From the NCBI GenBank assembly GCA_013265495.1, contig MU058205.1, positions 12,312 through 76,311 of the forward strand: 64,000 bases of DNA. Direction: 5' to 3'. This document shows positions 1 to 58,969 of this stretch, one piece after another; position 1 is the stretch's first letter, and the number at the start of each line of letters is the position of its first letter. The translations under genes and the position numbers were made by a program. The notes under the pieces were generated by a model. The model was given only the letters and a program-made list of their open reading frames with translations. It was not told the DNA's origin and did no database searches. This stretch comes from Vicugna vicugna (lineage: Eukaryota).

Positions 1-150
1 CAGGGCAGCTCACAGGACAGGACAGGGCAGGGCAGCTCACAGGACAGGACAGGGCAGGGCAGCTCACAGGACAGGACAGGGCAGGGCAGCTCACAGGACA
101 GGACAGGACAGAGCAGCTCACAGGACAGGACAGGGCAGGGCAGCTCATAG
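1..150. repeat. 27-bp minisatellite (CAGGGCAGCTCACAGGACAGGACAGGG), ~5.5 copies, probably continuing beyond the window start
   Basis: Unit repeats directly at 1, 28, 55, 82; built from CAGGR pentamers. Confidence 0.9.
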
Positions 151-1496
151 GCCAGAGCTGCTGGCTTCCTCTAGGGCAAGGTCAACATGGAGTTAAGCAA
201 CCCACATACACGCACTGCCTGCTCTCTTTTCTGTCACAGCTGTGATAAAACAGAGAACAAAAGTGCAGAGTAAGAGCCCTCACGGCTTCCCCAGACCACC
301 CTTCCTCACCGGCCTGTGCTGGCTTGTGCCTTGGAGAGCCCAGCCGACGGGGCTGGGCTGACCTTGTCACTGAGCTGGGGCAAGAGGAACGCAGGGTTCT
401 ATTGGCTGCTCGGGTCCTGGTCACCTGCCAGTGTCCGGGTGGTGTGGCCGTGTCGGCGAGCACTGGAGCTGGTGGAAGGAAGTCCGGGTCCTTCCGGACA
501 AGGGGTTTACACTCAGGTCACTAGGAACCACCGGCTGTTCACTCATTTGCTGCTGGTGGGACTGAAGGGGTGGCTGGGTGCTGCCACAAGTCCAGGCTCA
601 TCCACCTGTGACAATGGGCCTGAGTGTTACAGGAGCAAACTGGGGGCTCAGTCCCCCCTTTTGAAAACAATAATTTGCCACTTTGTTGAACAACTGTTCA
701 CTTTTTTCCATTAAAAATTGTTGATGTACACACAGGAGACATACAAAGCTCACCTACACAGTTGTGTGTGTGTGTGTGTGAGCATGTGTTGTTCACAGTT
801 TGAGGATCCACTGTGGTATGGACGCCTGTCCTCACTGCTGGAGTCAGTATATGAAAACAACCCTCTCCCAGGGGAACCTGGAATTCAGTGACAATCCTGT
901 CCCTGCTCTGCCTCCTCTTCTGACTCCCCGGGGGCACCTCTCAGCCAAGGCACCAGGCTTTTCTGTTCCACTTCCTTCACGTGCCCGCTTTGGGGACTAG
1001 CTGTCCGGGTGACTCACCCTGATGCCGTGATTGCTGAGTGTCCCTTGTGTGGATGGGCCACGTCCACCCACTCTCCTGATGAGACACGCTGGGCCTGTCC
1101 TATCTCGGGGCCCAGGACTCACCGCCAGGCCGTGTCCCACGTTTCACTGGTGTTTACACCCAGGAGCAGAACTTCTGGATCAGAGGGGGCCCTCACCTTC
1201 CTGGCCAAGAACAGCATCTTTCCTGAAAATTGAGCAGGTGTGTGTGCCAGGCCCCAGGCAGACCTGGGAGGAGGGGAGCTGCAGTCGGACCATTGTACAG
1301 GGACATCTGAGCCACCACCGCTGCCTGCGCCGAGCTGTGGGGGCGGGCGGGTGCTTTCAGAGGGGGAAAAGGGAGGGGGGCCTGGCCGATACCCCCAGCT
1401 CCCTCCCCTCCCTGAGTTAGGGGCACAGTTGCTGACTGGGAGCTGCATAAACCATCAGGCAGGAGAGAGAGTGTGTGCAGGGGCGCCGAGGCTGAA

Positions 1497-1820
1497 GGGG
1501 CTGCCCCGACCCAGGGTCGCCGCCCCGGGAGGCCTGAACAGCAGGAGTCCATCTTCCTACAGCTCTGGGGGCGGGAGGCCCGGGCGGAGTCCGGCGAGGC
1601 CACTTTCTGGTGATGGCTCTCCTCCCAGCCGCCAGCTGGCCGCGTCCTCGCTGTGTCCACATGTGATGGGGAGCCAGCCCAGGGACTCTGTCATGTAAGG
1701 ACACCAGACCAACCGGGCAGGGCCGCCCTCAGGACCTCACTCAGCCTCTGCACTCCAGACACTGTCACACGGGGGGACCTGAACCTGTGGATCTGGGGGA
1801 CGTGAACACCAGTCTGTAAC
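1497..1820. mobile_element. MaLR (MLT1-type) LTR remnant, GC-shifted
   Basis: Collinear with recalled MLT1 motifs: gggctgcc...cagctctgggggc...tggccgc..tcgctgtgtcc...taaggacaccag...gacctca...gtaac. Confidence 0.6.
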
Positions 1821-3589
1821 GGTGAGGGGTGTCTGAGGCCCTGGAGCAGGCGGGGGTGAGGGCGGGGCGGCGTCCAGGTACCTGCTGTTGTGAAACCATC
1901 CGCCCCTCAGGGCAGGGCTTTAAACACCCCTCGCTTCCTCCCGCAGGACGGGGCGCGGGCAGGCCCGGGCGCCGGCTGCTCTCCGCTGCCCGGGACCTCA
2001 GCGCTCGCCTTGCGCACAGGGGCTGCCGCCCGGGGCTCAGCTGGGCTGGTGGCCGGGCCTCGGCCTCCGTGTGGCTGCTGGGTTTCCTCACAGGCTGCGG
2101 GCTGGTTTCCAAGAGTGAGAAAGCAAAAGCTGCCATTCCGTCCTTCGCAGGTCGGGTCTGATCCTGGCAGGAGTGCCATTTCTCTCATTGTGGAAGTCAG
2201 GGTCCAGGGACAGCTGCTGGCCACTCATGTCCCAGAGCTTGTCTTTTTTTTTTTTAATAAAAATTCCATGAATTGAAGCTGTACAACATGACATTTGGTG
2301 TGTATGTATATAGTGAAGTGCTTACTGCAGGCGAGCTAATTAACACACCCTTCTCCTCCCCTATTTCTCACTTTGTGTGGTGTGAGCCCCTCGAAGCTAC
2401 TCTCCTGGTGAATATCCCCGACATGATACCTTGTCATTAACCATGGCCATCCCGCTGCACCTGTGTGTGCAGACCTACTCACGCTACAGAACTGGCACTT
2501 TCACCCGGGACCACCTCTCCCCAGTTCTGTTGCAGCAGCTGAGCCTGACCCTCAGCAGGACAGCAATCTAGCAGGGGACACTTCTAGTGGCCCCCCTGGG
2601 TCAGGCTGCTCCCAGGACCACAGCTATCTGAGGTTTCCAGCCCTCCCTTCCGTGGGTGACAGCCAAGCCCAGCTCCAGCCCCCTCTCCCCTCCAGACACT
2701 GCTCTGGAAATCCAACGTCTGAAGATGGATGCTCCCAACTAAAGGAGTCAGGAGCTGACATCTTCCAGGGGGCCACCCCCACTCTCTCCCAGAGATGCAG
2801 CTTGTTTGGAAATACGCTGACTCCCTCCTGACAACTGCACATTCTAATCGAGTAACTCAGGGAACAGGAGGTGTCACGCGTGGTGTAACTTGGTTATTAC
2901 TCGATGAATTTGGAACTGGCAACTTCCCTGACAGCTTAATTGGAAATCCAAGGAAACTCCACTCACAGTGTGAAGGCAGGACTTGGTCAAACCTGGGCCA
3001 GAGCCCTCAGGTTGGGGAGATGGATATTTAGGACCTCACAGGTATCATAAAGTGTCTCACAGCTGGTGTGAAATAGATTATATTACTAGAAAATCTGAGG
3101 TCCAGGAAGGCCAACAGATCAGGAGACAGCTGCCACTGAAAAGGCACTTTCTACTCACTGGCCCGGTGTGGGGATGGCAGCCTATGTGGGTCCACACCAC
3201 GTGGGGACCCCGGGGTCAGGGGCGGAGGAGCAGGGCGCTGTGGATAGGGCTGTCACGGGGTTTCTGCAGGAGGGAAGGGCGAGGCAGGTGAGCAGGCTGA
3301 GGACTGGCCGGTAGAGTAACTTCATGGGCTCTGGGGTCAAGGGACGACCTCGTGTGTCTGGACCTGATTCTGGGTGAGTCAGGCAGGTGGGCAGTGGCTC
3401 CGTGTGGGTCTGAGTCCAGTGGAGGAGGTGGGGGGTTAGCCCTAGAGAAAGGACTCCTCCTGGAGCGGGAGGGCCCACAAGGGAGGCAGGAGGCCAAGTC
3501 CAGGTGACTGAGAACAGGGCGTGTCCCGCAAAGGCCTGCAGGGCAGATGAAGGCATCCAGTCTACAGAAGGGAGAAACGTGTTCCATTC

Positions 3590-4370
3590 AAGGGCTCAGC
3601 TCGGATGTCACCTCCTCAGAGGAGCCTTCCCTGCCTGCGTAGTCTATAGGGACAGCCTCCTCCACACACATCTCCCCAGCAGTTACCCGCTTCATTTCCT
3701 GCATAGCATTCAGGATCCAGCCCCCCACTTCACACCCAGCTGTGGTTCCCCCTGCCCAGAAGAAAAGCCCTCACAGGGGCCACCGAGCCCTGCACGACCT
3801 GGGCCCCCACCTCTCTGTCTCCTCTGCCACCACTGTCCCCGCCACCTGGCTCTCTCCTCCTCCACCCTGCACTCCTGACTTCCCCGAGCCCTGCGTGTTC
3901 TCCAGAGCATGTGTCCCTCTTCACACGCTGTGTGTGCTCACTGTGTGTCTCACTCACTGCGTGCCTCCTGCCTAGGTCAGTGTCCAGCACACAGCAGGGC
4001 TCAATAAGTAGTGAATGAACGACTCTTACAATCACTGCCAGGAAGACTCTTGTCTGTGGCCTACAGTGATCACACACCCAGTGCACATTCACTGAGGCCC
4101 TGCTGTGTGCTGGGCAGGTTCCAGACAACAGGCACAGCAGGGAGTGAAGCATGCGGGTCTCCATTTTCATGCAGCAGACAGCCTGGTGGGGGACACAGAG
4201 AAAAATAAGTAAAATACACACAATGTTGGCGGTGATGTGTTCCATGGAGAAAAATAAAGTCAGGAAGGACATTTGACAGACTCCCGGAGGTGTTTAAGGA
4301 GAGAGGGAGAGAGTTCCAGGCTGAAAGAACAGCCAGTGCAAAGGCCCTGAGGCCACAGTGGGATGCACGT
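3590..4370. mobile_element. L2 LINE fragments (both orientations)
   Basis: ccagcacacagcagggctcaataagtagtgaatgaac L2 3' end; aacagccagtgcaaaggccctgaggc L2 motif. Confidence 0.55.
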
Positions 4371-9696: not shown

Positions 9697-9829
9697 TTTT
9701 TGGTTTTTTGTTTTTGGTGGGGGCGGAATTAGGTTTGTCATTTACTTTTAGAGGAGATACTGGGGATTGAACCCAGGACCATGTGCATGCTGAGTATGCA
9801 CTTTACCACTTAAGCTATACCTTCCCCCC
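9697..9829 (-). mobile_element. Vic-1-like SINE
   Basis: gggattgaacccaggacc...gctataccttcccc. Confidence 0.85.
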
Positions 9830-15687: not shown

Positions 15688-15819
15688 TTTTTTTTGGGGG
15701 GGGGGTTATTACGTTTATTTATTTCATTTATTTATTTCTTGGTGGGGGTACTGGGGATTGAACCCAGGACATCATGCATGCTGAGCAGGCACTCTACCAC
15801 TTAGCTGTATCCTCCCCTC
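15688..15819 (-). mobile_element. Vic-1-like SINE
   Basis: Reverse B box ggattgaaccc; TSD-like agttcctagttttt / agttcctaattttt. Confidence 0.85.
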
Positions 15820-21609: not shown

Positions 21610-21783
21610 GTGAGGGAGGGTAGAGCTCAGTGGTAGAGTGTGTGCTTAACATACACGAGGTCCTGGGTTCAACCCCCAGTCCCTCCATTAAAATAAATAA
21701 TAAATAAATAAACCTAATCACCTCCTCCTCAAAGCAAAAACAAAAAAAAGTAAGAATAAAATACACAAATTAAAAAAAAAAAT
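21610..21783 (+). mobile_element. Vic-1-like SINE
   Basis: A box tagagctcagtggtagag, B box ggttcaaccc, A-rich tail. Confidence 0.9.
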
Positions 21784-23950: not shown

Positions 23951-24559
23951 GTGCAGAGACGAGGCAGGACCCTAAGGAGGAGGCAGAGTCTGAGGAGGGA
24001 GGTAGGATCCCAGTGTTACGGAAACCCAGCAGCGTCATGCAACCAGCAAAAGACCCATTGGGCAGATGACTTTTATGGATAATTGGGACAAAGTAGCAAT
24101 CAGAGTATTTTGAACCACAGGATGTTTTGAGTGCAGCTCACAGGTCACAATATCCTTAGCAAAAAATAGGTGGGCAATCTACACTTACTCTATAGGACAG
24201 CAACAATTCCAGGTCATTTTAAAAATTACTATTGTAATACTCCCTTTTTATGAAACGTGGACCGTAGGCAAAAGCACAGGGACAAAAAGTAGGTGAGTTT
24301 CTGCCTTGTGCTGGGGGGATGGGGTGGCGTGGGGGATTATGGCTAAGTGGGTGCTGGGTTCCTTTTTGTGATTATGAAAATGTACTAAGTTGACTGTGGT
24401 GACGATGCGTAACTCTGAATATACTAGAAGCCGCTGAATGGTAGACTTCACGTGGCTCAGCTGTATGCTATGAGGATTGTCTCTCAAACAAAGGAAATGG
24501 TCTAAACGGAGGACTCGGATTAGGAGGATCGATCATTTTACGGACAAGCAGGCTTCCCT

Positions 24560-24930
24560 TTGCAGATACGTGTACATTGTTGCATAGGGCTGAAGAAACC
24601 AGAAGGAAGGCCTGCAGAAGAGCCCTGGATGAGGGCCCGACGCCAGTACTCCACGCCTGGGACCCGCGGCGCCCGGAACCCCGCCCCCTGGGGACAGGCT
24701 GGAGGCAAACCCCGCCGTCCGCCGCCGCTGGCTTGCGACTGGGCCGTCTGCGCGCCGCTCGGCCCTCTGGCCGGGCGTGGTCCTCGCCCGATCGAGAAGG
24801 AGAGCCCGTCCTGATCCAGGTCCAACCGCATTCCCTTGCGCCTAGAAGTGGCTGCAGCCCCTGTCCCCGCCCCTGATCTGGGCACGTCACCCTGATCCTG
24901 CAGCTCCTGACGCTCCTCCCCTTACGCTCA
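24560..24930. promoter_or_regulatory. Small orphan CpG island / candidate promoter
   Basis: Dense CpG in AT-rich surroundings; CCCCGCCCC GC boxes near 24678 and 24865; CACGTCAC near 24883. Confidence 0.5.
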
Positions 24931-25019
24931 ATTCTAAGTCTTCCTACAAATCATCTCAAAATTTAGTAAATTAAGACAATGATTAATCATTATCTTTCAT
25001 AATTCTGAGAATAGGTCTT

Positions 25020-29075: not shown

Positions 29076-29209
29076 ATTTTTTTTTTTATTTTTGGCAGAG
29101 TGGGAGGTAAATTAGGTTTATATATTTTTGGAGGATGTACTGGGTATCGAACTCAGGCCCTTGTGCATGCTAAGCATACACTCTACCACTTGAGCTATAC
29201 CCTCCCCCC
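29076..29209 (-). mobile_element. Vic-1-like SINE
   Basis: TSD tatatctgaaattttt on both sides. Confidence 0.9.
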
Positions 29210-43989: not shown

Positions 43990-44112
43990 TGTTTTCTTTT
44001 TGGGATGAGATAATTATGTTTTTATTTATTTGTTAATGGAGGTACTGGGGATTGAACCCAGGACCTCATGTATGATAAGCACACATTTTGCCACTGAGCT
44101 ACACCCTCCCCA
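43990..44112 (-). mobile_element. Vic-1-like SINE
   Basis: ggaggtactggggattgaacccaggacc. Confidence 0.85.
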
Positions 44113-47100: not shown

Positions 47101-48654
47101 CTGTATTCTTTTCCATTAAAGGTTATTACAAGATACTGAATATAGTTCCTTGCGCTACAGTCAAATTTAATGATCGATTTTCAAATCTGAGAATTTCATC
47201 ATGTCAATAAGAGCTCTTTTTGAGTAAAAAAAAAAGTCATTCTAGTTACCAACAGGCAAGTGAGAGAAGGATATTTAGGGACTGGGCACCCACATCAGCA
47301 TGTGGGACCAAGTCAAGGACCCCTTTCCATTATACTAGAAGAGTCCAGGGGTCTGTGATTACTGGCAAGGACCCACTGGTGGACCAGCTGGTGGTCTGGT
47401 GACACTTTTATGACTCTCCCATCTTCTCTAGTGAAAAATGCCAAGATTTTCTGGCATCGGGGCTTAGTCAGGAAAACGGCCACTGCAAAGTGCAGGGGTA
47501 GGGAAGGAAAGCTTTCCTGAGTGTGGGAGCTGCAGGGGAAGAGGGAAAGAGTCATTAATCCTGTCCAGCTGAACCTTGTGCAGGGAACCAGCTGGAGATT
47601 TCGAGAAACCCCATAGCCCTGCAGCTGTGGCCACAAGCTGGGCCGTGAAAGGGGAGTTCAAGATGTGTCACATGGGAGCTGCAGCCTCTGTGGGTCCAGT
47701 GAGCTTGGGGCTGCCGTGAGGACGGTGGGGTGGGCACAGAGCTGAGCCCCTCTGTGTCTGTCTGCCATCATGTTTAGCTGTGTGAGTGTCCTCTACTGCC
47801 CAGTCCCCAGGGAGCGCCTCGCATTGGCAACTGTAGCCTGGAACCACACAGGGAAGGGTGGTCTGAAAAGCACCGTCCCAGCCTCAGATGGAAGCAGCAG
47901 TGCCCTGTTGATCGTAGGCAACCCAGCTTTCATTTATGAGAAGTAGTTTTCTAACTGATAATCTCTTACAGGACGCTTAAAAACTAGGGCATTGCTGAAG
48001 GAAAGATATTTCCTTCAGAGATTAATGTGTCCAAGGTAAACGGTTATGGCTTGAAGAAAGAATGAATACTCAGAGCTGTATGACCTGCTAACATGAAAGA
48101 TCCAGAAACCACATACTTCTTTTTTTTATTACCAATTTTATTTTAAAAGGTTTTTTTTTTTAATGGAAGTATTTCAGTTGCAATGTGTCAATTTCTGGTG
48201 CGCAGCACAATGTCCCAGTCATGCATATACATACATATATTTGTTTTCAATTTTTTTAAGGGTTATTACAAGATATTGAATAGAGTTCCTTGTGCTATGT
48301 CATATAATTAGTTGATTTACTGCATAAGCCACACAGTATGGAGGGGTCTCCTGCAGCCGCGGCCTTGGTCAGCACTCTGCTGGTCCAGCCCGTCTCCCTA
48401 CTTCTGGACTTGCTCCACATGGTGTGCGGTGGGGGCTGCTTTCCTGCACGGCCTGCAGAAGAGTCTTGTAAGAGCGGGCAATTTGTTTTGGTGGCTTTAG
48501 ATCAGTCTGTGGGGCTGGGGGGGGGTTGATTAAATTGGATCTAGAAAGATGGGCCAAAATGTGTGGAAAGGGACAATATTCGACGTAACAGGGACAGATA
48601 AAAAAAGAGATCAAAGCAAAGGCAGGGACTATAGTAGTAAAATCTACTGTATGG

Positions 48655-50879: not shown

Positions 50880-52100
50880 CTCCTTCAGACGACGTGTCCC
50901 TAAGACCCCTCGTTTCTTCGCTTGGGCGGGGCGCTGCGGCCGGCGAGGCTGGGACCGAGCAGGGGAGGAGGGGGCGAGGGGCGAGGGAACGGGAGGAGCT
51001 CCGGCCGCCCGGCCGCGTGGGCGCAGGAGGGCGGAACCGCGCGGGCCGGTCGGCGGTGGCGTCAGTCTCTGGCGCCGGGGAGGACACCGCCCTCGGCCAG
51101 CCCCGCCCGCAGGCCCCGCCCCCAGGCGGGCGTTCAGGGTCCCCCCGGCGGGTATCGGGGACTCCGGCCAGGGGCCGCGATCTCCGTCCCCTGCGCGGCC
51201 CGCAGGGTGCAGGGGCCCCGCGCGCAGGCGGGGGGCGCTGTGGCCTCGGCGTGGGGACCGAGCGGCCGGCCGGCCCCGCCTCCTTCCCCTCGGCGCCCGC
51301 CCCCCACGCGCCGTGTCGCCGGGAAGCCGGGAGGAGACAGAGCCCGGGCTCCGCGGCGCTCGGCCCGCAGTCTTCGGCCGCGCGAAGCAGAGCGGGCGGC
51401 GCTGCCCGAGCCCAAGCCGCGACCCGCCCCGGCCGCCTTTGTCTGGAGCCGCGCGGCCCGGAGCCGCGGCTCTCGGGTCGGTGACAGCTCCTCCCTCAGC
51501 GGGCGCGGGTCGGAGGAGCGGTCGGCCGGGCCCCGCTCGCCGCGCGCACGTCCGAGCGCGGACCGATGCCCCCGCAGCAGGGGGACCCCTCCCTCCCCGG
51601 GCGCTGCGAGAACGGCGCGGTGGGCAAGACGAGCCTGGTGGTGAGCTACACCACCAACGGCTACCCCACCGAGTACATCCCCACCGCCTTCGACAACTTC
51701 TCGGGTGAGCCGGGCCCGGGGGGCGCCGAGGCGCGGGGGACGCGGGGCCCACGGGGAAGCGCCAGCTGGGAAGCCGACCGAGTGCGGCGCGGGGACCTGG
51801 CTCGGGCTCGGGCTCGGGGCCGCGCGGGGCAGACCGCGGGACCGCGGGGAACGGGGGAGCCCTAACCCGGGCACGGGGAGCGGCGGGTGCCTCGCATTTC
51901 AGGAACAGACGGCGCGGGTCTACCAGGTCGGGCTCCGGTGGCCTGGTCAGTTTCCTGCGTAGAGCAGCTGCGTCAGGCCGACGTTGCTGGCGCCGCTGCC
52001 GAGTTTCGGTCGGAAGGTGACGCGCAGGTGCCATTACCTGTGGCCCCGAGGGTCGGACCTTTCCTTTTGGCGACTCCCCTCACTGGGGGCGTCTCCACTT
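50880..52100 (+). promoter_or_regulatory. RHOU: RHOU CpG island promoter, 5' UTR and start of intron 1
   Basis: Very high GC and CpG density; multiple GGGCGG/CCGCCC boxes; G-run cluster ~50962-50993. Confidence 0.9.
51566..51704 (+). CDS. RHOU: RHOU coding exon 1 (shortened)
   Basis: [46 protein letters not shown]; donor G|GTGAGC at 51705; 139 nt, phase 1. Confidence 0.93.
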
Positions 52101-53324: not shown

Positions 53325-53383
53325 CTGTGGTGTCCGTGGATGGGCGGCCTGTGAGACTCCAGCTCTGTGACACCGCAGGACAG
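53325..53383 (+). CDS. RHOU: RHOU coding exon 2
   Basis: tttttaag| acceptor, encodes (A)VVSVDGRPVRLQLCDTAGQ with the G3 box, donor CAG|GTCAGT; 59 nt. Confidence 0.95.
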
Positions 53384-58513: not shown

Positions 58514-58969
58514 GATGAGTTTGACAAGCTCCGGCCTCTGTGCTACACGAACGCCGACATCTTCCTCCTGTGCTTCAGCGTCGTCAGCCCCTCCTCCTTC
58601 CAGAACGTCTGCGAGAAGTGGGTGCCAGAGATTCGGTGCCACTGTCCCAGGGCCCCCATCATCCTAGTTGGGACGCAGTCGGACCTCAGAGAAGATGTCA
58701 AAGTCCTCATTGAGCTGGACAAGTGCAAAGAGAAGCCGGTGCCGGAGGAGGCGGCGAAGCTGTGTGCCGAGGAGATCAAAGCCGCCTCCTACGTCGAGTG
58801 TTCGGCCTTGACTCAGAAAAACCTCAAAGAGGTCTTCGACGCGGCCATCGTGGCCGGCATTCAGTACTCGGACACGCAGCAGCAGCCGAAGAAGTCCAAA
58901 AGCCGGACTCCGGACAAAATGAAGAACCTGTCCAAGTCGTGGTGGAAGAAGTACTGCTGTTTCGTGTGA
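58514..58969 (+). CDS. RHOU: RHOU coding exon 3
   Basis: ttgcag|[14 protein letters not shown]...GTQSDL (G4)...ECSA (G5)...[11 protein letters not shown] RhoU C-terminus; spliced product 217 aa. Confidence 0.97.

What the first reader, a model, noticed from the sequence alone, without database searches (positions are those of the whole stretch)
51566..51704. RHOU exon 1 lacks ~41 codons in frame: SH3-binding extension, beta1 and the first P-loop Gly are missing
Seen: the frame runs ...[12 protein letters not shown] (junction tgcgag|aacggc at 51610/51611), exon 1 CDS is 139 nt and the spliced protein is 217 aa. I found no sequence encoding VKCVLVG in the surrounding CpG island. Known, recalled from memory: human RHOU is 258 aa and reads ...RCE-APPVPPRRERGG...GRGVKCVLVG-DGAVGKT. 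Residues ~16-56 are therefore absent and D57 reads N. This removes the PPVPPRR motif that binds Grb2/Nck SH3 domains, the core beta1 strand and the G of GxxxxGK(T). Inference: such a protein would probably misfold or fail to bind GTP. Exons 2-3 are nearly invariant, which argues for a functional gene and favours an assembly collapse in very GC-rich sequence. A real allele or lineage-specific deletion would be notable.
Basis: partly seen in the sequence, partly recalled or inferred. Interest (0 to 1): 0.75.

Follow-up and report, generated by a model that had tools for sequence, protein, structure and literature searches.

The report
Probable false deletion in camelid RHOU
This camelid genome sequence lacks 41 codons from the very GC-rich first exon of the signalling gene RHOU, but alpaca and camel records carry the full protein, so the gap is most likely a sequencing or assembly error rather than biology.

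Summary
Exon 1 (51566-51704) has 139 coding bases and the spliced frame is 217 aa. Against the 258-aa RhoU shared by alpaca and Bactrian camel records (P0134), residues 16-56 are missing, D57 reads N and F10 reads L; the other 201 residues are identical. The dromedary draft also holds the segment, though frameshifted. So the loss is not fixed in camelids or in alpaca. The missing 123 nt would be about 85-92% GC, no clean breakpoint explains the junction base, and RhoU exon 1 is broken or absent in 35 of 69 named mammal records I checked, including species that also have an intact record. Natural shortenings seen elsewhere keep the proline motif and the first strand. No reads were laid across the junction, so a private or Lama-type null allele remains open (about 10%). 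If real, the protein would lack beta1 and the first P-loop glycine and most likely be dead. The scan's earlier notes hold no RHOU finding. Verdict: probable artefact, low interest.

The parts
51566..51704 (+). RHOU exon 1 coding part as assembled, 139 nt (262 nt expected from P0134)
51610..51611 (+). Junction where 123 nt (codons 16-56 of camelid RhoU) are missing; base 51611 (A) fits no coding sequence of P0134 at any breakpoint and gives D57N
51593..51593 (+). Second base that disagrees with camelid RhoU (F10L), 18 nt left of the junction
50900..52000 (.). CpG island around the promoter and exon 1; GC 74-85% in 200-nt windows, CpG o/e 0.98 in 51001-52000; three G-quadruplex-type motifs (50962-50987, 51101-51123, 51804-51829)
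53325..53383 (+). RHOU exon 2, 59 nt, AG/GT ends, protein identical to P0134
58514..58969 (+). RHOU exon 3 coding part with stop; 151 aa, 100% identical to camelid RhoU records

Best explanation
The animal has an ordinary 258-aa RHOU. The most GC-rich 123 bases of exon 1 were poorly covered by sequencing, and the assembly (or a later step such as gap closing, polishing or removal of a gap) joined the two flanks, with low-quality bases at the edges (A at 51611, perhaps C at 51593). Shown: the gap, its size, the two odd bases, intact records in sister species, frequent damage to this exon in other records. Inferred: the GC content of the missing piece, low coverage, and that this individual's DNA is intact. 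How the join was made (contig ends butted, an N-run dropped, or a PCR molecule that skipped a GC-rich structure) I cannot tell.
For: Alpaca and Bactrian camel share one full 258-aa protein that differs from the window only at the gap, residue 57 and residue 10. The dromedary record P0122 fits the same coding sequence in a shifted frame for 18 of its first 18 tested residues, has misfits inside the segment, and is in frame from residue 36: a third species has the segment, and it sequences badly there too. All three other camelid records seen (P0002, P0003, P0122) have a damaged or missing exon 1. 35 of 69 named mammal records fail a motif test for an intact exon 1 (a biased set of cluster representatives and members, not a frequency), with intact and broken records of the same species for alpaca, Reeves's muntjac and American black bear. 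With third positions as GC-rich as the 46 retained codons (100%), the missing piece would be 85-92% GC, against a maximum of 87% in any retained 123-nt stretch of the island. Both protein-changing bases lie within 20 nt of the junction, none in the other 201 residues. Of 214 fetched proteins with the P-loop core, 212 have Gly-Asp before it, one has Gly-Asn, and only the window's has Glu-Asn. False indels and base errors cluster in GC-rich first coding exons (PMC9516821, passages; PMC7980453, passages).
Against: No reads or contigs were laid across the junction. The window's species is not established; if it is llama or guanaco, the alpaca record is from a sister genus. The join is sealed, with no N. 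A one-base non-templated junction is also what end-joining repair leaves (established knowledge). Leu at position 10 occurs naturally in rodent and bat RhoU (P0037, P0049), so F10L may be a true variant. Earlier notes report real camelid deletions in this genome (e1-7855912, unchecked).
Confidence: 0.88

Rival explanations
1. A real, recent deletion allele made by end-joining repair (124 nt lost, one A added), carried by this animal, probably with an intact second copy; the assembly took the short haplotype because it sequences more easily. The product would lack beta1 and the first P-loop Gly and behave as a null.
For: Sealed junction without N; non-templated base; the unchanged exons 2-3 fit a young allele; loss of RhoU in a mouse model gave gut hyperplasia, so animals with reduced RhoU can be studied (PMC10903452, passage).
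Against: The deleted exon-1 read-through frame is not among about 15 billion proteins by exact look-up and no listed hit or 25 has the junction; both are weak tests, as no camelid exon-1 genomic ORF of either form was found. A second odd base beside the junction is not expected from one repair event. Same exon is damaged in many unrelated records.
Confidence: 0.08
2. A deletion fixed in one South American camelid species or genus other than alpaca, making RHOU a very young pseudogene there.
For: No llama, guanaco or vicuna RhoU record appeared, so this is untested.
Against: Alpaca, Bactrian camel and dromedary hold the segment; no stop, frameshift or amino-acid change in 201 downstream residues, splice sites intact; RhoU knock-down embryos show foregut defects (PMC10903452, passage).
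Confidence: 0.03
3. A real and functional short RhoU: loss of the inhibitory N-terminal extension gives an active protein, with residues 1-15 replacing the lost strand.
For: Removing the extension alone raises effector binding and leaves nucleotide exchange unchanged (PMC6959303, passages); natural shortenings of the extension exist (Rousettus 242 aa, matched by an independent contig ORF P0207; ruminants and whales 255 aa).
Against: Those natural variants keep PVPPRR and the first strand. Here the cut runs into the GTPase core, and the residues that would take the strand's place are Pro/Gly-rich; Glu stands where the family has Gly in 213 of 214 proteins.
Confidence: 0.01

Closest known systems
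Camelid RhoU, 258 aa (XP_072827083.1 Vicugna pacos, XP_074229319.1 Camelus bactrianus; P0134)
   Same: Three-exon product identical over 215 of the 217 residues present.
   Different: Residues 16-56 absent; D57N; F10L.
False indels and gene losses in GC-rich first coding exons (PMC9516821; PMC7980453; passages read)
   Same: GC-rich CpG island, first coding exon, base errors beside the lost piece, newer records of relatives intact.
Short RhoU records of other mammals: Reeves's muntjac KAB0383557.1 (230 aa), walrus XP_012419371.1 (232 aa)
   Same: In-frame loss inside the same exon; the muntjac also has a full 255-aa record.
   Different: Other breakpoints, P-loop kept; whether they are genomic deletions or gene-model bridges over gaps was not tested.
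Engineered N-terminally truncated RhoU (PMC6959303, passages read)
   Same: Loses the central proline motif that binds Grb2 and Nck2.
   Different: Those constructs keep the GTPase domain; this form loses beta1 and the first P-loop Gly.

Membership tests
RHOU ortholog (RhoU/Wrch-1) | Sequence identity of the GTPase core and C-terminal extension to RhoU | tested here: met
   Exon 3 peptide 100% to camelid RhoU, 97% to bear-type cluster; best solved match 2q3h RhoU, E 1e-75
RHOU ortholog (RhoU/Wrch-1) | C-terminal CFV palmitoylation motif | tested here: met
   Frame ends CCFV; motif described in PMC6959303
RHOU ortholog (RhoU/Wrch-1) | N-terminal extension with the central PPVPPRR SH3-binding motif | tested here: not met
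   Absent in the assembled sequence; present in P0134
Functional Rho-family GTPase domain | Strand beta1 followed by the P-loop GxxxxGK[ST] | tested here: not met
   The stretch that aligns with the first strand of Cdc42 is missing and Glu stands at the first Gly. That this strand is beta1 of the central sheet is established knowledge; the predicted model also puts the first strand at 52-56 but is low in confidence (pLDDT 48)
Functional Rho-family GTPase domain | Folding and GTP binding of the 217-aa form | not testable with these tools
   Needs expression and a nucleotide-binding assay
GC-dropout assembly artefact | Located in an extremely GC-rich first exon or promoter | tested here: met
   Island 74-85% GC; missing piece estimated 85-92% (inferred from codons)
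GC-dropout assembly artefact | Segment present in other records of the same or sister species | tested here: met
   Alpaca, Bactrian camel, dromedary; same-species identity not established
GC-dropout assembly artefact | Reads of the source animal hold the segment or show a coverage hole | not tested
   No read-level result was obtained
Repeat- or microhomology-mediated collapse | Junction explained by a clean join between matching bases | tested here: not met
   Best breakpoints (44-46 nt into the exon) still leave base 51611 unexplained
Lineage-wide gene loss in camelids | Same deletion in other camelid records, with decay downstream | tested here: not met
   No other record has it; no change in 201 downstream residues

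The most novel reading that the evidence does not exclude
A natural loss-of-function RHOU allele, segregating or fixed in a South American camelid, that removes the SH3-binding motif, beta1 and the first P-loop glycine in frame: a living large-mammal model of RhoU loss, with a stable but GTP-blind, still palmitoylated protein as a possible dominant-negative.
Probability: 0.11. Interest if true: 0.5.

Novelty: not a real feature. Interest (0 to 1): 0.08.

Why it matters
If an artefact, it is a practical warning: a sealed, in-frame false deletion in a GC-rich first exon passes every open-frame check and would be annotated as a plausible 217-aa protein or scored as a gene loss. If real, it would be a natural RhoU null in a large mammal, useful because RhoU is tied to gut, heart and neural-crest development (PMC10903452, passages).

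Tried and rejected
Sequencing-run search: 14 DNA runs of four coded organisms in seven studies hold 0.86-0.94 of 197 sampled words; none holds all, but the junction and F10L base would cost only about 5 words (0.025) while the best run lacks 12, so shares cannot tell long from short form. Protein search with the 99-aa exon-1 read-through frame: 242 hits, 120 listed, intact exon-1 ORFs from many mammals but none with the camelid intron tail (best tail match 38-44% identity), so no proxy for camelid reads. Exact look-up of that frame: not in the collection; the spliced 217-aa form was not looked up. Metagenome scan for intact exon-1 DNA: 7 loci, 62-87% identity, not examined further, none matching the mammalian N-terminus; so hairpin or microhomology in the missing piece is untested. 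Structure prediction of P0134: pLDDT 48, not relied on; no fold search. Missing piece displaced elsewhere in the window, or a second RHOU copy: not found; the rest of the assembly was not available. Rescue by another start or exon: only one ATG in the island, no beta1-coding frame. Literature: a search for RHOU with camelid names listed 25 of 2,863 papers, none of the 25 with RHOU, which is no proof of absence; PMC6768663 passages said nothing on Rhou knockouts. Earlier scan notes: nothing on RHOU; some searches gave other loci only.

Full report
Observation. The window holds one RHOU gene on the plus strand: exon 1 coding part 51566-51704, exon 2 53325-53383, exon 3 58514-58969, with AG/GT ends, giving 217 aa. 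Exon 1 reads ...[12 protein letters not shown] across 51610/51611. No frame of the 64 kb encodes VKCV, KCVLV or CVLVG, tblastn with the missing residues finds only low-complexity matches, and neither flank has a second copy in the window. 51566 is the only plus-strand ATG in 50880-51710.

What the gene is. The exon-3 peptide is 100% identical to camelid RhoU records and matches the solved RhoU structure 2q3h at E 1e-75. A 39-residue reading of intron 1 is identical to the start of an older alpaca model (39 of 39), and DNA runs of four coded organisms hold 0.86-0.94 of the sampled words; I infer a South American camelid, but the species is not established.

What is missing. The cluster look-up returned P0134, a 258-aa RhoU identical in alpaca (XP_072827083.1) and Bactrian camel (XP_074229319.1). 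The window's protein differs from it by one gap, residues 16-56, and by D57N and F10L; the 201 residues after the junction are identical. The gap removes PPVPPRR, the motif that binds Grb2 and Nck2 (PMC6959303, passages; PMC3113775, search listing only), the stretch that aligns with the first strand of Cdc42, and the first Gly of the P-loop. Among 317 proteins fetched, 214 have the P-loop core; 212 have Gly-Asp before it, one has Gly-Asn with the strand intact, and only the window's has Glu-Asn. By established knowledge of the Ras fold, beta1 lies in the central sheet and leads into the P-loop, so the 217-aa form would most likely not fold or bind GTP; this is inference. A predicted model of P0134 places the first strand at 52-56 but has mean pLDDT 48 and is not relied on.

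Is it shared? No. Besides alpaca and Bactrian camel, the dromedary record P0122 fits a coding sequence for P0134 in a shifted frame for 18 of its first 18 tested residues, shows misfits inside the segment and is in frame from residue 36. So three camelid species hold the segment, which excludes a family-wide loss and a loss fixed in alpaca. No llama, guanaco or vicuna record appeared, so a loss limited to one of them is untested.

Signs of an artefact. (a) All 46 retained codons of exon 1 end in G or C; at that rate the missing 123 nt would be 85-92% GC (hard bounds from the codons 51-92%), against at most 87% in any retained 123-nt stretch of the island, and only 0.08% of sampled 123-nt stretches in the window reach 85%. 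(b) No breakpoint makes the junction compatible with a coding sequence of P0134: the best (44-46 nt into the exon) leave bases 51593 and 51611 unexplained. Both protein-changing bases lie within 20 nt of the junction. Phe stands at position 10 in 35 of 36 proteins matched by my pattern, although rodent and bat proteins outside the pattern have Leu. (c) The exon is a known weak spot in records: 35 of 69 named mammal records that I picked fail a motif test for an intact exon 1. This set favours odd sequences and is not a frequency, and many failures are gene models bridging gaps. More telling are species with both an intact and a broken record: alpaca (P0134, P0003), Reeves's muntjac (P0156, P0167), American black bear (P0007, P0179). 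All three other camelid records are damaged at this exon. (d) Natural shortenings exist, such as Rousettus at 242 aa, matched by an independent contig ORF (P0057, P0207), but they keep the proline motif and the strand. (e) False indels, base errors and gaps cluster in GC-rich first coding exons (PMC9516821, passages; PMC7980453, passages).

Against. No reads were laid across the junction, so the decisive test is open. The shares cannot settle it: the junction costs about 5 of 197 words and the best run lacks 12. The join has no N. A one-base insertion at a deletion is also typical of end-joining repair (established knowledge), and an unchanged downstream frame fits a young allele as well as an intact gene. 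The absence of the short form from the protein collection is weak, because no camelid exon-1 ORF of either form was found there. A scan of metagenomes gave no mammalian exon-1 DNA, so I could not test for a hairpin or microhomology in the missing piece. RhoU loss has been studied in mice (gut hyperplasia; foregut defects in knock-down embryos; PMC10903452, passages), so viability does not rule out a real allele. I did not open supplementary files of any paper.

Mechanism and odds. Most likely (0.88) the segment dropped out of the data because of extreme GC content and the flanks were joined with poor edge bases; an exact-repeat collapse is disfavoured by the unexplained junction base. A recent real null allele has about 0.08, a loss fixed in one non-alpaca species 0.03, a functional short RhoU 0.01.

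Novelty. As an artefact it is a known kind of error. A search for RHOU with camelid names listed 25 of 2,863 papers, none of them mentioning RHOU; that is no proof that nothing is in print. The scan's earlier notes hold no RHOU finding. Interest 0.08; about 0.5 if reads showed a real allele.

Noticed in passing
window 51903-52016 (+), RHOU intron 1: A 114-nt stretch with an acceptor (tttcag) and a donor (aag|gtgac) keeps the frame and has no stop; it equals residues 2-40 of the older alpaca model XP_006212453.3 (39 of 39). It may be a real alternative exon, spliced from an upstream start or inserted after switch I, or only a gene-model patch.
   Followed up: partly
window 47752-47820 (+): Matches the N-terminus of the wild-camel model EPY80202.1 (16 of 17 and 10 of 10 residues); probably a gene-prediction patch for a missing exon 1, possibly an upstream exon.
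   Followed up: no
window 51592 and 51601: Two further bases left of the junction differ from what the shifted-frame dromedary record implies; silent in the true frame, so either normal divergence or more edge errors.
   Followed up: partly
window 9752-9824, 15743-15814, 21616-21687, 29132-29204, 44037-44108: Five low-scoring Rfam tRNA matches (30.6-39.3 bits), probably heads of tRNA-derived SINEs (inference).
   Followed up: no
window 1-4000 and about 24000-25000: GC-rich stretches (55-66% GC at 1-4 kb; CpG o/e 0.68 at 24 kb) not assigned to any gene here.
   Followed up: no
protein P0174 (MCV4601267.1): A 78-aa record labelled Escherichia coli, on a 235-base contig, sits in a vertebrate RhoU cluster; probably host contamination of that record.
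   Followed up: no
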